Assembly (NCBI GenBank): GCA_038217285.1
Contig: JBBQPO010000190.1
Location: 1 to 11,960, forward strand
Origin: Chthonomonadales bacterium
GTDB taxonomy: Bacteria > Armatimonadota > Chthonomonadetes > Chthonomonadales > Chthonomonadaceae
Length of the DNA stretch: 11,960 nt
Reading direction: 5' to 3'
Below are positions 2,183 through 10,943 of this stretch, in pieces. The position numbers and the translations under genes were made by a program. The notes under the pieces were generated by a model. It was given only the letters and a program-made list of their open reading frames with translations, made no database searches and was not told where the DNA came from. Each line of letters starts with the position of its first letter. Position 1 is the first letter of the stretch.

Positions 2183-3130
2183 TCAGCGGCGCGAGCGACG
2201 GCGACGCAGCAGGCCCACGCCGACGACACCACCGCTAACCAGAAGCCCGACAGCGCCGGGTTCGGGAGTGCTCGGGGCAAACGCGATGAAGTACGGCCCA
2301 TTCACGCCATCGGCAGCGGAGGCAAAGAGCGTCCCGTTGCCCCCGCCCGGACCGAACTTCTCGACCGTGTTGTTGCTGGCATTCGCTGCGTAGAGATTGC
2401 CGCTGCGGTCGAAAGCGATGCCAATGGGACCGTTCAGACCGTTGGCGGCGTTTGCGAAGGTGGTGGGAGAGCCGCCGCCCAGGGCAAACTCCAGAATCGT
2501 GTTGCCAACGTTGTTCGCCTCATACAGGTTGCCCGCGCTGTCGAAAGCCAGACCGACCGGACTGCTGATGCCGTTCGTGGCGTTGGCGACTACCGTGGAG
2601 GAGCCGCCGCTGGGGGCGAACTTCAGGAGGGTGTTGTCGCCGTTGCCGGCCACGTAGACATTGCCCACCCCATCGACGATAACTCCCGCCGGACCGTTCA
2701 GACTACTGGCAAAAACGGTAGGGGTTCCGCCGCCCGGCGCAAACTTTAGGATATTGTTGTTGTTGAAGTTGGCCTCGTAGAGGTTGCCGGCATTGTCGAA
2801 CGAAATCCCGAGCGGCCGGTTCAAGCCGTTTGTGGCGGTGGCGAAGACGGTCGGTGATCCGCCGCCCGGTGCATACTTTAAGATCGTGTTCGTTGTCTCG
2901 TTCGCCACATAGAGGTTGCCCCCACTGTCGAATGCAAGCCCAGTCGGGCCGCTCACACTGTTCGCGAATACGGAGCCGGCGCCGCCGCTGGGCGCGAACT
3001 TCCGAATGGTGTTGTCGCCGTGGTCCGACAGATAGAGGCTCTGGGCATGGGCCCTCCGTGCTGTGCCGTGGGCGCTCAAGGCGAACCCGATACCAAGAAC
3101 AAAGAGACCGCGAATGCATCGATTAGTCAT
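2183..3130 (-). CDS. PEP-CTERM sorted surface protein with six NHL-type beta-propeller repeats (315 aa)
   Basis: Start MTNRC at 3130 with GAGG RBS; signal peptide ending AHA-Q; six repeats NLYxAN..N.I.KFAP.GG...FA....GP.G.AFD; C-terminal TPEPGAVGLLVSGGVVGVGLLRRRRSRR. The track start at 3331 is probably too far upstream. Confidence 0.9.
   Translation of the reverse strand: MTNRCIRGLFVLGIGFALSAHGTARRAHAQSLYLSDHGDNTIRKFAPSGGAGSVFANSVSGPTGLAFDSGGNLYVANETTNTILKYAPGGGSPTVFATATNGLNRPLGISFDNAGNLYEANFNNNNILKFAPGGGTPTVFASSLNGPAGVIVDGVGNVYVAGNGDNTLLKFAPSGGSSTVVANATNGISSPVGLAFDSAGNLYEANNVGNTILEFALGGGSPTTFANAANGLNGPIGIAFDRSGNLYAANASNNTVEKFGPGGGNGTLFASAADGVNGPYFIAFAPSTPEPGAVGLLVSGGVVGVGLLRRRRSRR
2270..3043 (-). 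repeat. Six intragenic 42-44 aa NHL-like repeats
   Basis: Aligned by eye from the translation. Confidence 0.85.
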
Positions 3131-3329
3131 AAGACCTCTTTCTTGAAGACACTGGGAACTCTCCCTTGCATGTTTCCCAATCCGTAAACAGTGCGAGCCG
3201 GCAAATCCGGACAAAATTTCTCGCAGGGAGACGCCTATGTCTTCCTGGCGCAAACTTAGCCATCGGACCCCGCCACTGGGGAAGGCCGTCTCTGGAGCAG
3301 GTTTCTGCCTGATCCCGCTTTTCCGATGC

Positions 3330-3362
3330 AAAGAGAGGGGAGTCGAAACCGACTCCCCTCTC
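3330..3362 (-). terminator. Perfect 13-bp hairpin in the 5' leader of the PEP-CTERM gene; possible attenuator/terminator
   Basis: GAGAGGGGAGTCG (3333-3345) / CGACTCCCCTCTC (3350-3362), 4-nt loop, only a short TTT on the minus strand. Confidence 0.5.
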
Positions 3363-3855: not shown

Positions 3856-5541
3856 ATGACTTCTCGCTTTTGGGTTCGAGGCCGAATCCTCTTGCTGCTG
3901 AGTATGCTGCTCTCCGTCTGTGCAGGGGCGGCACCCCGCTCGGAACCGGCCCCTCTCGGCACGGTGGCAGCGCCCACGATGCACCGGCACTGGCTCTTTG
4001 TGTGGCGGGATATGAGCGATCCCAAAGAGGTGGATCGCATGATCGCCCGTTTCCCACGAGCGCAGGCGGACGGTTACAACGGGGTGGTCTTCTCTCCTAA
4101 TATCCCTCCCGCCAAAGCGCCCGAGCTGCGGCAGGCTGCGAAGAAGTACGGCCTGGATCTCGTCGCCATCGTCATGGGCAACTCGCATGACCGGAACTAC
4201 ACGGAGGGTGTGCTCTCCCAGGACGCGCTGTTTGTCCCCCACGACGGCGTCGCCACCTTTCACCCGGACAACCCGACGCGTGTCCTGAATGCGGACTTCG
4301 AGGAGGCGGGCGGCAACCACTTCAAACGTTGGGGATTTCAGGACGATGAGGGCGTGACCACCTTCGCCGACCATGACGTCGTGCACGGCGGCAAGACCTC
4401 GCTGCGCATGGAGAGCATCGGCAAGAACGAGGCCCGGCACGCGCGCATCATGCAGCCGCTCGCGCTGCAGCCGCACCGTCAGTATCGGCTCTCCTTCTGG
4501 GTCAAGACCGAGAACATGGTTCCCGCCGACCCGGAGGTCAAAGTGCTGACCGCCGATTCCGGACGCTCCCTCTGTTTTCAGACTTTCCACGCCGAAAAGA
4601 CCCAGGACTGGACCCACTACGACCTGGTCTTCAACAGCCTCGACAACAGCAAGGGCCTGCTCTATGTCGGCTCCTGGAACGGTAAGGACGGCAAGCTCTG
4701 GTGGGACGACCTGACCTGCGAAGAGGTCGGTCTGGTCAATGTGCTGCGCCGACCGGGCTGCCCGGTGACGGTGCGCGCGGAGAACGGCACGGTCTATGCG
4801 GAGGGCCAGGACTACGTCAAAGTCGTCGATCCCCAACTCCATCCCTATCGCGCCTATCACGAGCCGCCTGCGATCAAATTGACCCCGAATTCGCGCATCC
4901 ACGAGGGCGACCGCCTGCGGGTGAGCTACTATCATCCCCTCATCGTCTACGAGGAGCGCATCACGAGTTGCCTCAGCGAACCCAAGATCTTCACGGAGTG
5001 GCAGGAGGACGTAAAGAAGGCGAACGACCTGCTGCACCCGGCCGCCTTCCTGATGTCGCACGACGAGTTGCGCGTGGTCAATCAGTGCTTGCTCTGCCAG
5101 AGCAAGCACATGACGCCCGGCCAACTGCTGGCCTGGAACGTCCATAAGGCCGCGCAGATCATTCGCGACATTCGCCCGGATGCGGGCATCTGGGTCTGGA
5201 ACGATATGTTCGACCCTCTCCACAACGCGGTCGATCACTTCTACGCGGTGAACGGCCCCCTGAAAGGCTCCTGGCTGGGCCTCGACAAAGACGTCGGCAT
5301 CGTCAACTGGCACGGCGGGCTACTGGGCAAGAACGCGAAGTTCTTTGCTGATCTGGGCCTGAAACAGATCCTCTCCGGCTACTACGATGGCGATGAAGAC
5401 GGCGCAGCGATCACGAAGTGGATCGACAATACACGGACCATTCCCGGCATCGACGGCGCGATGTACACCACCTGGGAGGATCGCTACGACGCCATGGACC
5501 GATGGGCGCAGAAGGCCTGGGGCAGTGGCAAAACGCGCTGA
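3856..5541 (+). CDS. Secreted glycoside hydrolase-like protein: CBM4/9-like carbohydrate-binding domain plus GH20-like TIM barrel
   Basis: Signal peptide (RGRILLLLSMLLSVCAGA); CBM-like NADFE...VVHGGKTSLRM...QYRLSFWVKT...LWWDDL; GH20-like MSHDELR, VWNDMFDP, IVNW and GAMYTTW. Confidence 0.7.
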   Translation: MTSRFWVRGRILLLLSMLLSVCAGAAPRSEPAPLGTVAAPTMHRHWLFVWRDMSDPKEVDRMIARFPRAQADGYNGVVFSPNIPPAKAPELRQAAKKYGLDLVAIVMGNSHDRNYTEGVLSQDALFVPHDGVATFHPDNPTRVLNADFEEAGGNHFKRWGFQDDEGVTTFADHDVVHGGKTSLRMESIGKNEARHARIMQPLALQPHRQYRLSFWVKTENMVPADPEVKVLTADSGRSLCFQTFHAEKTQDWTHYDLVFNSLDNSKGLLYVGSWNGKDGKLWWDDLTCEEVGLVNVLRRPGCPVTVRAENGTVYAEGQDYVKVVDPQLHPYRAYHEPPAIKLTPNSRIHEGDRLRVSYYHPLIVYEERITSCLSEPKIFTEWQEDVKKANDLLHPAAFLMSHDELRVVNQCLLCQSKHMTPGQLLAWNVHKAAQIIRDIRPDAGIWVWNDMFDPLHNAVDHFYAVNGPLKGSWLGLDKDVGIVNWHGGLLGKNAKFFADLGLKQILSGYYDGDEDGAAITKWIDNTRTIPGIDGAMYTTWEDRYDAMDRWAQKAWGSGKTR

Positions 5542-5635
5542 AGGGCCAACGCTCTAACATAATGCAGGAGGAAAACCGGGTCCGATAAGTGAACGGGATA
5601 AAGGTTGTTCGTCAGTTGTACTCTGGAGGTTCCTG

Positions 5636-8266
5636 TTGAACTTACCTGGCGGAACGGTCACCTTTCTTTTTACGGACATCGAGAACAGCTCAAAGCTCTG
5701 GGAGACTCAACCGGAGGCGATGGCTGTCGCACTGGCACGCCACGACGTGTTGCTACGAGAGGCCATCGAAGCCAACAAGGGTGTCGTCTTCAAAACGGTT
5801 GGAGACGCTTTCTGCTCAGTCTTCGCCTCCCCACTGGACGCCTTGAACGCTGCCACAGAAGCCCAGGGTCGCCTGTCGGCCGAACCGTGGGATGAGGCCA
5901 CAGCGGGAATCAAGGTGCGCATGGGGATGCATGTCGGCGCACCCGAATGTCGCGAGGGAGACTATGTCGGCCCGTCCGTAAATCGTGTCGCCCGTGTCTG
6001 TGAGCTCGGTCATGGCGGACAGATCCTCGTCACGCAGGCGGTTCATGAGATGGTCGGGGAACTCGCGCCGAAACAGGTCACCTTCCGCAGTCTGAACGCC
6101 TGGCGCCTCAAAGGGATGTCCCGGCCCGAAACGATCTATCAGATCGAAGCCCCCGGCCTTCCCACGGACTTTCCGCCCCTCCGCTCTGTCACCGAAACTG
6201 TCGGCAACCTCCCCGAGATTCTCGCCTCTTTTGTGGGCCGCGAAGCGGAGATGCGTGAGATTACGCGGCGTTTAGAGAGGCAGAAACTGCTGACGCTGCG
6301 CGGCGCGGGCGGATGCGGCAAAACGCGACTGGCCATCGAGTCGGCCCGCTCCCTGGCGATCGACTATCCGGGCGGGGTCTGGCTCGTGCGGCTGGAGGCC
6401 CTGACGGATTCCGAACGGATCGCGGGTGAAGTTGCACGTACGCTCCGGCTCTATGTACCTGCAGAACAGACGGTCGAGCAGGCTCTCGCCGCCCGTCTGA
6501 GCGAACGCCCCACCCTGCTTATGCTGGATAACTGTGAGCACCTGCGGGCCGGGTGTGCACGCTTTGCGCATGCGCTTCTCTCGACCTGCCCGGATCTTCG
6601 TATTCTGGCGACGAGCCGCGAATCCCTGGGCGTACCGGGCGAACAAATTTTCGAAGTCTCTCCGCTGCGGCTGCCGAATCGGTCCGTGCGGCCTGCTCTC
6701 GCCATGCTGCGCGCCAGCGAAGCCGTGCAGCTCTTTACCGCGCGCGCCGAGGCCGGCTCCGGATTTGCGCTGACCCGAGAGAATGCAGCGGCGGTGGCGG
6801 AGATCTGCCGCGCCCTTGATGGCATTCCGCTGGCGCTGGAGCTTGCCGCCCGCTGGGTCGGGATACTGCCACTGGACGATATCGCCCGCGAACTGAGCGA
6901 TCTCATCAACGAGCCGCCGGACGACCTCGGCATTATCCCTGCGCGTCAGCAGACGATGCGCGCAACCGTGGACTGGAGCTTCAACCGCCTCGAGCCCGAT
7001 GCACAGGCGCTCTTCCTGAACCTCGCCGTGTTCGTCGGCGGCTTCACCCTCGAAGCGGCGCGCGCCATGAATACCGCCCCGGACCACAGCCCGACCCATG
7101 TTTTGCGTCTGCTCAAGGGCCTCGTAGATAGATCGTTCGTCTTCTTCGATGAGAACGCCCTACCCGATCCGCGCTACCGGCTGTTGGAGCCGGTTCGCGA
7201 AGTCGCGGTCGAGAAGCTATTAGCCGCAGAGAGGGAGAGCGCCGTACGGGATCAACACCGAGACTGGTTTCTCTCCTACGCCATACACGCTGATTCTGAA
7301 CTTCAGGGCACCCAGCAGGCCCTCTGGCTGGACCGAGTCGAGGCCGACCAGGACAATTTCCGCGCCGCGCTCAAGTGGTCCATTGATCCGAAAACTCGGC
7401 TCCGTCTGGCGCTGGCGCTGCACCGCTATTGGCTTAGACGGGGTCCGGCCGTCGAAGCCCGTGCCTGGCTGGAAGGCGCACTCGCGCAGGCCGCAGGAAT
7501 TGAGGAGAGAGAGCGTGCCAGGACTCTCAACATTCTCGGTATCCTTGCCTGGACACAAGGCGAGATCGAGTCGGCAAAGCGATTCTATGAGGAGAGCCTT
7601 GCGATCTGGAAGCGGATGGACGTTCTGCCTGAGACAGCGATGTTGCTTAACAATATGGCTATGATTGCGCGGTATGAGAAAAACTTTTCGCAGGCGACCC
7701 TTCTATATCAGCAGTGCCTTACCATCTATCGCGATCTTAAAGACGATCAGCATATCTGCGCTGTTTTGAACAACCTTGGGGGAGCGCTAAACGATTCAGG
7801 TGACCATGCCGCCGCTCTCCCTCTTTTGGAAGAGAGCCTGCGTCTGCACCGGTCCTGTGCAAACGAGGCGGGTGAGGCCAATGCGCTGTACAACCTGGGC
7901 GACGTGGCGCTCTTTTGCAAACATTATGAGGATGCTGAAAAGCTGTTTATCGAAAGCCTCGATATTTTCGCAAAGCTCGGGGACGGGAAAGGAATTGTCC
8001 TCGCGTGGGTAGCCTTAGCGCCCGTCTATGTTGAGTCAGGACGTTACACAGACGCGGTTATGTTGCTTTCAGCGGCGCATCTGGCCGCAGAAAGCGCTGG
8101 CACACGCCTCTCTCCAGCTACTCAAGTACGTGTTGACAGGACTATTTCAGTCTTAAGAGAAGCCTTACAGCAAGACCAATTCGACCTCACATGGCACGAA
8201 GGTCAGACCACACCCCTCGCTGACATCGTTGCGGGGGTACACCGAGGCGACCTCTCTCATCCTTGA
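5636..8266 (+). CDS. Class III adenylate/guanylate cyclase - STAND (COG3903-type) NTPase - TPR protein
   Basis: TTG start with GGAGG RBS. Cyclase motifs TFLFTDIE, FKTVGDAF, VRMGMHVG, DYVGPSVNRVAR; P-loop GAGGCGKT; Walker B LLMLDNCEHL; ILATSRE; LDGIPLALELAA; C-terminal TPRs (LNNLG..., ALYNLGDVA). Confidence 0.92.
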   Translation: MNLPGGTVTFLFTDIENSSKLWETQPEAMAVALARHDVLLREAIEANKGVVFKTVGDAFCSVFASPLDALNAATEAQGRLSAEPWDEATAGIKVRMGMHVGAPECREGDYVGPSVNRVARVCELGHGGQILVTQAVHEMVGELAPKQVTFRSLNAWRLKGMSRPETIYQIEAPGLPTDFPPLRSVTETVGNLPEILASFVGREAEMREITRRLERQKLLTLRGAGGCGKTRLAIESARSLAIDYPGGVWLVRLEALTDSERIAGEVARTLRLYVPAEQTVEQALAARLSERPTLLMLDNCEHLRAGCARFAHALLSTCPDLRILATSRESLGVPGEQIFEVSPLRLPNRSVRPALAMLRASEAVQLFTARAEAGSGFALTRENAAAVAEICRALDGIPLALELAARWVGILPLDDIARELSDLINEPPDDLGIIPARQQTMRATVDWSFNRLEPDAQALFLNLAVFVGGFTLEAARAMNTAPDHSPTHVLRLLKGLVDRSFVFFDENALPDPRYRLLEPVREVAVEKLLAAERESAVRDQHRDWFLSYAIHADSELQGTQQALWLDRVEADQDNFRAALKWSIDPKTRLRLALALHRYWLRRGPAVEARAWLEGALAQAAGIEERERARTLNILGILAWTQGEIESAKRFYEESLAIWKRMDVLPETAMLLNNMAMIARYEKNFSQATLLYQQCLTIYRDLKDDQHICAVLNNLGGALNDSGDHAAALPLLEESLRLHRSCANEAGEANALYNLGDVALFCKHYEDAEKLFIESLDIFAKLGDGKGIVLAWVALAPVYVESGRYTDAVMLLSAAHLAAESAGTRLSPATQVRVDRTISVLREALQQDQFDLTWHEGQTTPLADIVAGVHRGDLSHP

Positions 8267-8314
8267 GGTCGAACTTATACGACGGTACGTTGGCAGCGTA
8301 CCCGAGGAGAAAAC

Positions 8315-8800
8315 ATGGAACCTGAATTCGAAGAAGTCGATACCACTGTACCAAAACGCCGCAGGAAGAAGGGGCCTCTTGAAGCTTATGATATCCCGAT
8401 CAGTCTCGCCGTAAGCGACTATCCCACGAGTGGGCTCATCGGGGAACGAACGAAGCGGCCCGGCGGCTCACCGCGGCCTGCCACTTTGAAAGCGCAAGTT
8501 ACGGTTAAGATTTTGGACGCCGTGCCGGCTTCCGTCGACAAAGATGTCGCCTTTCTCTTAACAGGATATATGGTGAAAAACGGCAACCTGATCCCGCATA
8601 GTAATCTCCTTGATGGGCTCAAAACAGATCCGACAGGGAAGATCCAAAACAGTAACGAAGGCTTTATTCTCGTGGAAATAAATTGGCAGCACATTAACCC
8701 TGGAACATACTACGTGCGGGCCGAAGTTACCGTACTAGCCACCGATACGGGTAAGTCTTTTGCGCGCTACGAAGAGATCTTTATTCGCTTCGAGAAATAG
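8315..8800 (+). CDS. Hypothetical 161-aa protein, beta-rich (possible Ig-like sandwich) with basic N-terminal patch
   Basis: GAGGAG RBS; 48 bp after the STAND gene on the same strand; PGTYYVRAEVTV strand motif; no signal peptide. Confidence 0.75.
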   Translation: MEPEFEEVDTTVPKRRRKKGPLEAYDIPISLAVSDYPTSGLIGERTKRPGGSPRPATLKAQVTVKILDAVPASVDKDVAFLLTGYMVKNGNLIPHSNLLDGLKTDPTGKIQNSNEGFILVEINWQHINPGTYYVRAEVTVLATDTGKSFARYEEIFIRFEK

Positions 8801-8903
8801 CGAGATCCAGATGCGCCGGAGGCACATTAACCGCCCCGGCGCTCATTCTTTTTCCGATAGTATCCGTTCCATTGTGTATGGAGTCAGGAGAGGGAAATCT
8901 ACT

Positions 8904-10943
8904 ATGCACAACAAAGTCCCGGAACTCGTCCGGTCCGACCCGACGCTGCAGCCCTACGAAGGCGCAATTCGGCAGCGTCGAGATCGTTACGTGTCTGCGT
9001 TGGCGGGTATTAATGCGCAGGGCGGGCTGCTCGGCCCAATCAGTCAGGGGCACGACTACTTCGGTTTCCATCGAGGAGAGCGGGAGGGGCAGCCCGGCGT
9101 CTGGTATCGCGAATGGGCGCCCGCCGCGCATCGGCTTTTCCTGGCTGGCGACTTCAACGGATGGGACCGGGGCAGGCATCCCCTTGATCGCGGTGACGAG
9201 GGCGTCTGGACCCTGTTCGTGCCGGACATCGACGGCGTGAATCCGCTGGCGCACGGCAGTCTGGTGAAGGTGCATATCCTCTCCGACGTCGGCACGATGG
9301 ACCGCATTCCCCTCTACGCCCGCCGCGTCGTGCAGGATCCGCAGAGCAAAGACTTCACCGCACAGATCTGGATGCCGCCTACGCCGTATCGATTCGAGCA
9401 TGCGCCGCCTCGCCTGGAACATGGACTGCGTATCTACGAGGCGCATGTCGGCATGGCGACCGAAGCCTATCGGATCGGGACGTTTGCGGAGTTCACGGCC
9501 GACATCGTTCCAAAGGTGAAGGCGCTGGGTTACAACGCGATCCAGTTGATGGCCGTGATGGAGCACCCGTACTACGCCTCGTTCGGCTACCATGTCAGTA
9601 ACTTCTTCGCGGTCTCCTCGCGTTTCGGCACACCCGAGGAGCTGAAGCTGCTGATCGATACCGCCCACGCCGCCGGTCTGCTGGTGTTGATGGACCTTGT
9701 CCATAGCCACGCGGTGAAGAATACTCAGGAGGGCCTCGACCTGTTCGACGGAACCTCCTATCAGTTCTTCCATGCGGGCGCGCAGGGAGATCATCTCCAG
9801 TGGGACTCGAAGCTGTTCGACTACGCCAAACCGCAAGTGCAGCATTTCCTCCTGAGCAATATCCGCTACTGGCTGGAGGAGTATCGTTTCGACGGGCTGC
9901 GCCTGGACGGCGTCACCAGCATGCTCTATCGGGATCACGGCATCGCCAGGGTCTTTGCGAGTTACGACGACTACTTCGGGGCCAATGTGGACGGGGACGC
10001 CCTGCTCTATCTCCAGTTGGCCAACGCCCTCACCCATGCCGTACGCGCCGAGGCTCTGACCATTGCCGAGGATGTCTCCGGGATGCCCGGCCTGGCGCGT
10101 CCCGCTTCCGAAGGCGGACTGGGTTTCGACTACCGACTCAACATGGGCGTGCCAGACTACTGGGTCGAGTTGGTGAAGGAGAAGTCGGACGAGCAGTGGC
10201 CGCTGGGCGCGATCTACGCCCGACTGCTGGACCGGCGACATGGCGAGAAGCATGTCGGCTATGTCGAAAGCCACGACCAGGCCCTCGTCGGGGACCAGAC
10301 CCTCCTCTTTCGCATGCTGGGCGCGGAGATGTACGCGAACATGCACCGGGTGAGCGCCAGTATCGTCGTTGACCGGGGCATCGCCCTGGCGAAGATGATC
10401 CGCCTGCTGACGTTCAGCCTGGCCGGAGAGGCGTACCTCAACTTTATGGGCAACGAGTTCGGCCATCCGGAGTGGATCGATTTCCCGCGCGCAGGCAACC
10501 ACGAATCGTTTCAGCACGCGCGCCGACTCTGGTCGCTCGCGCAGAACGACACGCTGCGTTACGGCGACTTGCAGCGCTTCGACACGGCGATGCTGGCCCT
10601 GGACACCCATTACAATCTCTTGCTCGATCCGTTTATCGAGCAGTTGGCTCTGCACGAGGAGGCCCGCCTGTTAGCCTACCGCCGGGGGCCACTGGTTTTC
10701 GTCTACAACTTCCACCCGACCGCCTCCTACACCGACATGCGCCTTCCCGTCCCGGATGCCGCCGACTATGAGGTCGTCCTGAACACCGACGATAACCAGT
10801 TCTCCGGACACGGCCGCAGTGGAAGCGATCCGGTCCGCTACCCGCTGCAGTCTGTCCCGATGTATGGCCGGGAGCAGAGCATCCAGATCTACCTTCCCAG
10901 TCGCAGCGCTCAAGTGCTCGCTCCCCGCAGCAGAATTACCTGA
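8904..10943 (+). CDS. glgB: 1,4-alpha-glucan branching enzyme, GH13_8 (eukaryote/Bacteroidota-type), 679 aa
   Basis: Start MHNKVP at 8904 with purine-rich RBS. Motifs YREWAP, IYEAHVGMA, MEHPYYASFGYHV, DLVHSHA, FDGLRLDGVTSMLY, IAEDVSG, ESHDQALVGD and FMGNEFGHPEWIDFPR. Confidence 0.95.
   Translation: MHNKVPELVRSDPTLQPYEGAIRQRRDRYVSALAGINAQGGLLGPISQGHDYFGFHRGEREGQPGVWYREWAPAAHRLFLAGDFNGWDRGRHPLDRGDEGVWTLFVPDIDGVNPLAHGSLVKVHILSDVGTMDRIPLYARRVVQDPQSKDFTAQIWMPPTPYRFEHAPPRLEHGLRIYEAHVGMATEAYRIGTFAEFTADIVPKVKALGYNAIQLMAVMEHPYYASFGYHVSNFFAVSSRFGTPEELKLLIDTAHAAGLLVLMDLVHSHAVKNTQEGLDLFDGTSYQFFHAGAQGDHLQWDSKLFDYAKPQVQHFLLSNIRYWLEEYRFDGLRLDGVTSMLYRDHGIARVFASYDDYFGANVDGDALLYLQLANALTHAVRAEALTIAEDVSGMPGLARPASEGGLGFDYRLNMGVPDYWVELVKEKSDEQWPLGAIYARLLDRRHGEKHVGYVESHDQALVGDQTLLFRMLGAEMYANMHRVSASIVVDRGIALAKMIRLLTFSLAGEAYLNFMGNEFGHPEWIDFPRAGNHESFQHARRLWSLAQNDTLRYGDLQRFDTAMLALDTHYNLLLDPFIEQLALHEEARLLAYRRGPLVFVYNFHPTASYTDMRLPVPDAADYEVVLNTDDNQFSGHGRSGSDPVRYPLQSVPMYGREQSIQIYLPSRSAQVLAPRSRIT

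What the first reader, a model, noticed from the sequence alone, without database searches (positions are those of the whole stretch)
5636..8800. NLR-like cyclase-STAND-TPR receptor with a low-GC 'TPR sensor + small partner gene' block: candidate two-gene signalling system
Seen: cyclase and NTPase motifs look intact (both metal Asp, N..R, ATP-type Lys and Asp). GC is high in the NTPase region (44/60 at 6301-6360) but falls from about 7500, where the terminal TPRs start (27/60 at 7681-7740), and stays low through the closely linked 161-aa gene (24/60 at 8641-8700) before recovering in glgB. Known: STAND proteins sense ligands via C-terminal repeats and oligomerise to activate N-terminal effectors; class III cyclases need dimerisation. 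Inference: the sensor end and partner gene are exchanged together as a polymorphic cassette on a conserved cyclase-NTPase chassis. The small protein could be the cognate ligand, inhibitor or guarded decoy controlling cAMP output, in signalling or immunity.
Basis: partly seen in the sequence, partly recalled or inferred. Interest (0 to 1): 0.7.

Follow-up and report, generated by a model that had tools for sequence, protein, structure and literature searches.

The report
Cyclase NLR-like receptor with hypervariable partner
An optional two-gene unit in a soil/sediment bacterium pairs a cAMP-making, NLR-like receptor with a small, very fast-evolving immunoglobulin-like protein, and the receptor's sensor end is reshuffled between relatives, which resembles an immune-type or recognition system but is untested.

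Summary
The ORF at 5636-8266 encodes an intact class III cyclase, STAND NTPase and TPR protein. GC falls from 0.636 (5636-7499) to 0.523 (7500-8800), which lies in the lowest 2.5% of genome windows.

New findings:
1. The cyclase gene and the 161-aa gene together form a block of at most 3.35 kb (5571-8924). This block is missing between the same flanking genes (CBM gene, glgB) in 2 same-genus genomes and in contigs of 2 other metagenomes. A third metagenome has it.
2. The 161-aa ORF is a real gene. It has 9 distant full-length homologues and is predicted to be a cytoplasmic Ig-like beta-sandwich with a disordered acidic N-terminal tail. In the one other context I could retrieve, a homologue sits directly after a receptor orthologue. 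There the receptor is 63-79% identical by domain and the partner about 30%.
3. Two other cyclase-STAND-TPR paralogues in this genome show the same design with unrelated small partners (receptor 69-73% identical, partner 35-36%).
4. Trees for residues 1-600 and 601-876 of 12 orthologues conflict (AU p 5e-6 and 1e-69). One pair is 93% identical up to residue 525 and 60% after it, so sensor ends are exchanged on a conserved chassis.

Not shown: co-exchange of the partner with the sensor, binding, any effect on cAMP, or a role in immunity.

Verdict: new variant of a known kind; interest moderate to high.

The parts
5571..8924 (+). Maximum extent of the presence/absence block (receptor gene, partner gene and short flanks)
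   Evidence: G001:C30 and G003:C227 have the CBM-gene stop, 12-14 nt, then the glgB ATG. A contig in run X3 matches 5000-5570 (17 mismatches in 571), then has 105 other letters, then matches 8925-9331. A contig in run X6 joins 5523 to 8925. No border repeats were found, nor any tRNA.
5636..8266 (+). Cyclase-STAND-TPR receptor gene (P0001, 876 aa). TTG start, preceded by GGAGG at 5625-5629
   Evidence: Orthologues begin MNLPxGTVTFLFTD.
5654..6145 (+). Class III adenylate cyclase domain (aa 7-170) carrying D14, K53, D57, D109, N116 and R120
   Evidence: Pfam PF00211, E 4.7e-14. The residues were read and are conserved.
6227..7015 (+). STAND (NB-ARC-like) NTPase module, aa about 198-460. Walker A at 223-230, Walker B D298
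   Evidence: Pfam AAA_22, nSTAND1 and NB-ARC all match just below their cut-offs. NCBIfam FxSxx_TPR aligns over 197-459. This is the most conserved part among orthologues.
7226..8266 (+). Variable sensor arm (aa about 530-876). TPR_12/TPR_10 repeats start at aa 626 (nt 7511). The last 76 aa are the fastest-evolving part
   Evidence: The P0006/P0008 identity break lies at aa about 530-600. Identity to orthologues is 60-73% in the TPRs and 39-64% in the C-terminal tail. By PDB sequence the TPRs are closest to LGN/GPSM2, kinesin light chain and AfsR.
8304..8309 (+). GAGGAG ribosome-binding site, 5 nt before the partner gene's ATG
   Evidence: No terminator-like site lies in the 48-nt gap.
8315..8800 (+). 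Partner gene (P0002, 161 aa). Disordered acidic N-terminal tail (1-21), conserved DIPIS segment, Ig-like beta-sandwich (about 23-161). No signal peptide is visible
   Evidence: 9 full-length homologues. AlphaFold model with pLDDT 75. Generic Ig-like fold matches with Z up to 9.4.
3856..5541 (+). Left flank: CBM_4_9-containing protein gene, conserved in same-genus genomes
8904..10943 (+). Right flank: glgB (1,4-alpha-glucan branching enzyme), true ATG at 8904

Best explanation
This is an accessory two-gene module.

Gene 1 encodes a soluble NLR-like switch. It has an N-terminal ATP-specific class III cyclase as output, a central STAND NTPase as the oligomerisation switch, and a C-terminal TPR arm of the kinesin-light-chain/LGN type as sensor.

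Gene 2 lies 48 nt downstream with its own ribosome-binding site and is probably co-transcribed. It encodes a small cytoplasmic Ig-like protein with a disordered acidic N-terminal tail.

Shown here:
- The pair is gained or lost as one block.
- The pair stays together in another organism.
- Divergence rises steadily along the module: NTPase, then TPR, then C-terminal tail, then partner.
- Sensor ends are replaced by recombination on a conserved cyclase-NTPase chassis.
- Two paralogous receptors carry unrelated small partners evolving in the same way.

Inferred mechanism:
- The partner is the cognate protein ligand of the sensor arm. It is most likely a bound regulator or guarded bait that holds the receptor monomeric and off.
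- A trigger that alters or displaces the partner, or that binds the partner-sensor surface, would allow ATP-dependent oligomerisation.
- Oligomerisation would bring cyclase domains together as active dimers and raise cAMP.
- cAMP would then be read by the few cNMP-binding proteins of the genome.

The accessory distribution, the fast evolution and the recombining sensor favour a conflict or recognition role (phage sensing or self/non-self) slightly over ordinary environmental signalling.

The confidence of 0.55 is for the whole statement. I put the architectural part (a co-inherited module with a hypervariable sensor and partner) at about 0.85, and the partner-binds-sensor step at about 0.45.
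For: Architecture and intact motifs.

Block absent between the same neighbours in G001 and G003 and in contigs of runs X3 and X6. A contig in run X2 spans the CBM/cyclase junction at about 95% identity.

The partner is a real family: 9 homologues of 160-195 aa aligned end to end.

Conserved linkage: in L014 a receptor orthologue (NTPase 78%, WH 79%, TPR 63%, tail 47% identical) is followed 50 nt later by the homologue P0131, which is about 30% identical.

dN between the window and L014 rises along the module: 0.12-0.14 (NTPase and WH), 0.24 (TPR), 0.42 (tail), 0.75 (partner).

The same pattern holds for paralogues. The C277 receptor is 73% identical to its orthologue and partner P0135 is 36% identical. 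The C19 receptor is 69% and partner P0134 is 35%.

Only 3 of 26 STAND-TPR paralogues have a GC drop of at least 0.07 at the sensor end, and those are exactly the three with such partners.

Recombination: the AU test rejects a shared tree (p 5e-6 and 1e-69, 12 sequences). P0006 and P0008 are 93% against 60% identical.

The genome has 12 cyclase-domain hits against 3 cNMP-binding hits.

The TPRs resemble peptide-binding TPRs of kinesin light chain and LGN. That those TPRs bind short acidic peptides is recalled, not tested.
Against: No evidence of physical contact between the two proteins was obtained.

Only one independent context exists for this particular partner family. Pairing of the other 8 homologues with receptors could not be checked.

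The neighbours are metabolic or unremarkable genes (CBM protein, glgB, ankyrin protein), not defence genes.

PADLOC finds no Avs/NLR defence model for the receptor and nothing for the partners.

cAMP is a general messenger, and no cNMP-dependent effector is encoded beside the module.

Only 3 of 7 assessable cyclase-STAND paralogues have such a partner, so a partner is not obligatory for this receptor class.

The three partner families share no significant sequence similarity (hhalign E 0.13-0.56).

Low GC and fast change could also reflect relaxed constraint.
Confidence: 0.55

Rival explanations
1. The sensor end and the partner gene travel together as one exchangeable cassette, with a breakpoint at the NTPase/sensor boundary, so partner type co-varies with sensor type.
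For: There is a sharp identity break at aa about 530-600 between P0006 and P0008, and the partition trees conflict. The low-GC tract is continuous from about 7500 through the partner gene, and the same is true in L014.
Against: Co-variation could not be tested because only one other receptor-partner pair was retrievable. Among most orthologues the sensor is simply a faster-evolving orthologous region: distances in the two parts correlate (r 0.87, slope 1.7, 66 pairs). The partner diverges much more than the adjacent sensor (about 30% against 47-63% identity), so the two do not behave as one uniformly evolving unit.
Confidence: 0.35
2. Passenger gene. The 161-aa gene is a functionally unrelated small gene that happens to sit downstream. 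The low GC and fast change reflect weak constraint plus AT-biased mutation, with no signalling link.
For: No binding evidence was obtained. The partner has no known family. The partner's dN/dS is about 0.5, although dS is saturated. Part of the GC drop is due to amino-acid composition, since GC1 and GC2 fall.
Against: Linkage is kept across about 25% receptor divergence in another organism, with the same spacing and orientation. The family keeps its full length and keeps invariant residues I27, P28, D35, R48, R54, G130 and T131. The same arrangement recurs at two paralogues and is conserved in same-genus genomes. Among 26 paralogues the GC drop at the sensor end is specific to the three receptors with partners.
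Confidence: 0.2
3. Ordinary signal-transduction receptor of the MalT, AfsR or mycobacterial cyclase-ATPase kind. It would sense a metabolite or protein cue, with the partner acting as an anti-activator (as MalK, MalY and Aes do for MalT), and would not be an immune or conflict system.
For: The family is very large and mostly annotated as signalling proteins: 7990 of 8000 scored candidates have E<=1e-10. The output is cAMP. The genome has about 26 STAND-TPR paralogues. The TPR tail matches AfsR. There is no defence-island context and no PADLOC Avs match.
Against: There is a presence/absence polymorphism between relatives that are 97% identical in the flank. No orthologue was found in 67 other genomes of the order, where the best match to the sensor end is 39% identical. 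Sensor ends are recombined and the partner evolves very fast. These features are more typical of conflict systems.
Confidence: 0.35
4. The partner is the downstream effector that reads the cyclic nucleotide, giving a Pycsar-like logic of cyclase plus cNMP-activated effector.
For: It is adjacent to a cyclase. There are weak PycC matches to the cyclase domain (E 4.8e-4 and 0.002).
Against: No cNMP-binding family, transmembrane segment or enzymatic domain was found in the partner. The fold is a plain Ig-like sandwich. Three unrelated partner families would each have to bind cAMP.
Confidence: 0.05

Closest known systems
Bacterial antiviral STAND / NLR-like receptors (Avs/AVAST, bNACHT)
   Same: Both have a tripartite layout of N-terminal effector, central STAND NTPase and C-terminal TPR-like sensor. 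In both, sensors are the variable part, distribution is accessory, and the expected mode of action is activation by oligomerisation. Section 5 of PMC13581612 was read.
   Different: The effector here is an adenylate cyclase rather than a nuclease, protease, Sir2 or TIR domain. 'Cyclase' occurs 0 times in the main text of that survey. There is no PADLOC Avs hit and no defence neighbourhood. Here a dedicated small partner gene accompanies the receptor, whereas Avs proteins sense phage proteins directly.
Mycobacterial cyclase-ATPase-LuxR proteins (Rv0386, Rv1358, Rv2488c; the CHD+LuxR subfamily)
   Same: A class III cyclase is fused N-terminally to a large ATPase/TPR regulatory body. Passages of PMC3466318 were read.
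   Different: Those proteins end in a LuxR helix-turn-helix domain, and P0001 has none. No conserved small partner gene is described in the passages read.
MalT and AfsR (STAND transcription activators with TPR-like sensors)
   Same: Both are STAND switches with a TPR or SUPR sensor. MalT is held off by small protein partners that bind it (recalled; the title of reference 26 was seen). The AfsR TPR matches P0001 at 615-843.
   Different: Their output is DNA binding, not a cyclase. Their inhibitors are housekeeping proteins encoded elsewhere, not hypervariable adjacent genes.
Pycsar/CBASS cyclases with a fused Ig-like AGS-C domain
   Same: A nucleotide cyclase is associated with an Ig-like module that is suspected to tune what is sensed. 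Passages of 10.1101/2023.05.21.541620 were read. The EcPycC AGS-C structure 9ard is among the top fold matches of P0002 (Z 8.8, rmsd 3.3, 105 residues aligned).
   Different: That match is tied with many generic Ig-like domains (Z 8-9.4). There is no sequence match to any Pfam family at E<=1. Here the Ig-like protein is a separate gene and the cyclase is embedded in a STAND receptor.
Plant paired NLRs with decoys and fungal NLR/het loci (analogy only, recalled)
   Same: A receptor is genetically coupled to a fast-evolving partner or bait, and the recognition parts are recombining and polymorphic.
   Different: There is no homology of the partner, the output is different, and nothing about this analogy was tested here.

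Membership tests
Class III nucleotidyl cyclase (PF00211) | Profile match above the curated cut-off | tested here: met
   52.8 bits against 21.9, aa 7-170. Confirmed on the genome copy.
Class III nucleotidyl cyclase (PF00211) | Two metal-binding Asp, the transition-state Asn/Arg, and the substrate-specifying Lys/Asp pair for ATP | tested here: met
   D14, D57, N116, R120, K53 and D109 are present and nearly invariant in 14 orthologues. The residue roles are recalled from the literature.
Class III nucleotidyl cyclase (PF00211) | Dimer-dependent cAMP synthesis | not testable with these tools
   Needs an enzyme assay.
STAND NTPase (NB-ARC / AP-ATPase type) | Walker A and Walker B motifs in a P-loop module between an effector and a repeat sensor | tested here: met
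   GAGGCGKT at 223-230 and LLMLD with D298, invariant in orthologues. The tripartite order is shown.
STAND NTPase (NB-ARC / AP-ATPase type) | Pfam NB-ARC or nSTAND profile match above the curated cut-off | tested here: inconclusive
   NB-ARC 21.5 against 23.5; nSTAND1 23.0 against 27.1; AAA_22 25.9 against 27. All are just below their cut-offs.
Avs/AVAST and other catalogued defence STANDs | Match to a defence-system protein model | tested here: not met
   PADLOC v2.0.0 gives only a generic TPR model and weak PycC matches. The library dates from 2023 and lacks the newer Avs7-21 families.
Avs/AVAST and other catalogued defence STANDs | Location among known defence genes | tested here: not met
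   The neighbours within the window are an NHL protein, a CBM protein, glgB and an ankyrin protein.
Pycsar | A cyclase plus an adjacent cNMP-activated effector (transmembrane or TIR with a cNMP-binding domain) | tested here: not met
   The partner has no cNMP-binding, TIR or transmembrane family. The PycC matches are weak (E 4.8e-4 and 0.002).
AGS-C Ig-like domain (for P0002) | Specific sequence or fold similarity to AGS-C | tested here: inconclusive
   9ard gives Z 8.8, tied with unrelated Ig-like domains, and Foldseek E 4.9e-3. No Pfam family matches at E<=1 in any of the 10 family members apart from 5 chance-level hits.
Mycobacterial CHD-ATPase-LuxR subfamily | C-terminal LuxR-type helix-turn-helix domain | tested here: not met
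   No HTH family appears among the 15 Pfam matches of P0001. The protein ends in TPRs plus a 76-aa tail.

The most novel reading that the evidence does not exclude
Cyclase-STAND-TPR receptors with their downstream hypervariable Ig-like proteins form a previously unrecognised class of two-component bacterial NLR systems. In this reading the small protein is a dedicated bait, decoy or co-receptor. Its interface with the sensor arm is diversified by recombination and fast evolution, in the manner of plant NLR-decoy pairs or fungal allorecognition loci. Recognition is reported through a shared cAMP signal from a dozen parallel receptors per genome.
Probability: 0.25. Interest if true: 0.8.

Novelty: new variant of a known kind. 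Interest (0 to 1): 0.6.

Why it matters
Cyclase-STAND-TPR proteins are very common in soil and sediment bacteria and are annotated only by their domains. What they sense is unknown.

A dedicated, co-inherited and rapidly diversifying protein partner, together with demonstrable replacement of sensor ends, would give these receptors a concrete and testable ligand. It would also link them to the logic of guard/decoy immunity or self/non-self recognition, with cAMP as the read-out.

It also offers a simple experimental handle. Receptor with and without partner can be compared in an E. coli cya-minus strain.

If the partner proves to be irrelevant, the finding reduces to an ordinary accessory signalling gene with a fast-evolving 3' end.

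Tried and rejected
- Complex prediction of the sensor arm (aa 560-876, 14-row alignment) with the partner (10-row alignment) returned 'no answer', score 0.00 in both runs. This is not evidence either way.
- No listed sequencing run is on record as RNA, so expression is untested.
- A search for fused or longer forms of the partner found none among 8000 scored candidates. This is weak evidence.
- ESM Atlas: best feature score 0.85, no informative cluster.
- Partner families against PHROGs, PADLOC, NCBIfam and Pfam: no family.
- hhalign between the three partner families: E 0.13-0.56, not significant.
- The model of P0135 was of low confidence (pLDDT 56) and was not fold-searched.
- No border repeats beyond chance-length matches, no tRNA and no Rfam family at the block edges, so the mobility mechanism is unknown.
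- The search for related loci with the 10-row alignment failed for lack of a conserved stretch. With a 7-row alignment it found 0 relatives among 82 pattern matches in genome contigs and 1 among 120 in metagenome contigs.
- The sensor end used as a query found none among 39 pattern matches in genome contigs.
- A scan of 9 more distant STAND-TPR loci for similar downstream genes gave no consistent pattern.
- dS between the window and L014 is saturated (0.9-2.1), so dN/dS values are unreliable.
Full report
**Observation**

The window is contig C190 of a 6.21-Mb, 459-contig assembly with GC 0.604. Names given by sources to close homologues point to Chthonomonadales (Armatimonadota).

The ORF at 5636-8266 (TTG start, GGAGG 6 nt upstream) encodes 876 aa with three parts:
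- A class III cyclase domain at aa 7-170 (Pfam, 52.8 bits).
- A P-loop STAND module at aa about 198-460. NB-ARC, nSTAND1 and AAA_22 all match just under their cut-offs.
- TPR_12/TPR_10 repeats from aa 626 on.

The tract 7500-8800 has GC 0.523. That is the lowest 2.5% of 28,292 genome windows of the same length. The fall involves GC1 and GC2 in the TPRs, which is an amino-acid composition effect, and also GC3 (about 0.72 down to 0.56, and 0.42-0.46 in the last 75 codons).

**The pair is an optional block**

In same-genus genomes G001 and G003, the upstream CBM-domain gene (3856-5541) is followed 12-14 nt later by the glgB start codon. Homology resumes at window position 8925. The real glgB start in the window is the ATG at 8904.

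Contigs of other metagenomes agree:
- Run X3 has a contig matching 5000-5570 with 17 mismatches in 571, then 105 other letters, then 8925-9331.
- Run X6 joins 5523 to 8925.
- Run X2 has a contig spanning the CBM/cyclase junction (5439-5815, 20 mismatches) and pieces extending as far as 8527.

The block 5571-8924, carrying both genes, is therefore present in some close relatives and absent in others. I found no border repeats, tRNA or RNA family at its edges. G004 has a transposase-like ORF after the CBM gene instead.

**The small gene is real and linked**

P0002 has no paralogue in its own genome. It was not found in any of the following:
- 60 relatives.
- 400 other genomes sampled from the phylum.
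- The other 67 genomes of its class.
- The word-indexed 5.8-billion-protein set, apart from itself.

An exhaustive HMMER scan of 1.84 billion representatives found 9 homologues of 160-195 aa. They align end to end at 28-44% identity, with invariant I27, P28, D35, R48, R54, G130 and T131 and a consensus N-terminus MExxPEEVD...DIPIS.

The AlphaFold model (pLDDT 75, pTM 0.68) has a disordered residue range 1-21 followed by a beta-sandwich. Fold matches are generic Ig-like domains with Z up to 9.4. The Pycsar EcPycC AGS-C domain scores Z 8.8, tied with many others. No signal peptide or known family was found.

The one retrievable context is a 2662-nt metagenome contig, L014. It encodes the C-terminal 583 aa of a receptor orthologue, followed 50 nt later by the partner homologue P0131.

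**Gradient of divergence**

Identity of eight close orthologues to P0001, by region:

| Region | Identity |
|---|---|
| Cyclase | 69-82% |
| NTPase | 71-82% |
| Winged-helix region | 73-82% |
| TPRs | 60-73% |
| Last 76 aa | 39-64% |

Between the window and L014, dN is 0.12-0.14 (NTPase and WH), 0.24 (TPR), 0.42 (tail) and 0.75 (partner). dS is saturated. L014 shows the same GC decline along the gene, so that decline is an old trait of the module.

**Recombination of the sensor end**

I compared 12 full-length orthologues, leaving out the truncated P0010 and P0018. ML trees for aa 1-600 and aa 601-876 conflict. Each partition rejects the other's tree (AU p 1e-69 and 5e-6).

The clearest case is P0006 against P0008. 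They are 93% identical over aa 1-525 and 60% over 526-876. The drop falls between about aa 530 and 600 (nt about 7226-7436), around a conserved island at 571-600. In the C-terminal part P0008 is closest to P0007 (67%).

Across all 66 pairs, distances in the two parts still correlate (r 0.87, slope 1.7). Faster divergence is therefore the rule and replacement is occasional.

**Recurrence at paralogues**

The genome holds about 26 STAND-TPR ORFs with complete 3' ends, and 8 of them carry the cyclase. Only 3 of the 26 lose at least 0.07 GC at the sensor end: C190, C19 and C277. All three are cyclase receptors with a low-GC ORF starting 29-55 nt downstream: P0002, P0134 (295 aa) and P0135 (235 aa).

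| Receptor (this genome) | Compared locus | Receptor identity | Partner identity |
|---|---|---|---|
| C277 | G003 | 73% | 36% |
| C277 | G001 | 51% | 33% |
| C19 | G003 | 69% | 35% |

The three partner families are not detectably related. However, the best non-significant alignments all anchor on a short (G)Q/D-A-I-P-I-S-like segment, which is invariant as GxAIPI in the P0135 family.

The other cyclase-STAND paralogues have different downstream genes.

**Interpretation**

The data support a co-inherited receptor-partner module whose recognition end (sensor arm plus partner) is hypervariable. Two corrections apply: the chassis itself is accessory, and the GC pattern is ancient.

I infer that the partner binds the sensor arm and gates NTP-dependent oligomerisation, which would dimerise the cyclase and raise cAMP. 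The genome has 12 cyclase-domain hits but only 3 cNMP-binding hits, which suggests many receptors feeding one messenger. The TPRs are closest in sequence to peptide-binding TPRs of LGN and kinesin light chain. The partner's conserved acidic tail is a plausible docking peptide, but this rests on recalled properties of those TPRs.

Binding, the partner's effect on cAMP and any immune role remain untested. There is no defence-gene context and no PADLOC match.

**Literature**

I found no paper describing this pairing. Five searches were run. From them I read:
- Passages of Kaur et al. 2020.
- One section and passages of Lee et al. 2026.
- Passages of the CBASS AGS-C preprint.
- Passages of the actinobacterial LuxR survey.

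Supplementary tables of the STAND survey were not examined. They could list cyclase-bearing clades.

Noticed in passing
window:8315-8400; L026:6988-7695; L025:3554-4441: The three unrelated partner families each carry a short conserved segment. In the P0002 family it is DIPIS (I27 and P28 invariant), in the P0135 family GxAIPI is invariant, and in the P0134 family it is NxGQxIxxxTSxP. The best hhalign alignments, though non-significant, anchor on this segment. It could be a shared docking motif or chance.
   Followed up: partly
window:8315-8345: The P0002 family has a conserved acidic N-terminal consensus MExxPEEVD in a disordered tail. It recalls the EEVD peptides bound by TPR clamp domains of Hsp70/Hsp90 co-chaperones (recalled from memory). 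Here it is N-terminal, so a carboxylate clamp could not apply as such.
   Followed up: no
window:285-1034: A 249-aa ORF with low GC (0.463) and no Pfam or NCBIfam family. This is another low-GC orphan in the window.
   Followed up: no
L004:3228-3428 (G004:C317): In same-genus genome G004 the CBM gene is followed by the start of a transposase-like ORF with a helix-turn-helix N-terminus, at the contig end, instead of glgB or the module. The same intergenic site may be prone to insertions.
   Followed up: partly
window:8904-8924: The first seven codons and the ribosome-binding site of glgB differ from those in G001 and G003, where homology starts only at 8925. The insertion or deletion event therefore remodelled the 5' end of glgB.
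   Followed up: partly
L034:138-997 (G000:C55): A shorter cyclase-STAND paralogue (639-aa ORF) is followed by a small ORF and then a gene whose N-terminus looks like a PIN/VapC toxin (judged by eye, no family scan).
   Followed up: no
G000 genome-wide: There are 12 class III cyclase domain hits, most fused to STAND NTPases, against only 3 cNMP-binding domain hits. About 26 STAND-TPR paralogues were found, and many contigs end inside them.
   Followed up: partly
window:1361-3331: The 462-aa plus-strand ORF (1361-2749) overlaps a minus-strand NHL-repeat gene (2183-3331) that has strong Pfam support. The plus-strand ORF has no family and may be partly spurious.
   Followed up: no
L017, L020 (G053:C139, G020:C85): More distant STAND-TPR homologues in other genera also lose GC at the sensor end (0.68 to 0.58, and 0.61 to 0.50). 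They are followed within 39-61 nt by ORFs with signal-peptide-like or Tat-like N-termini.
   Followed up: no
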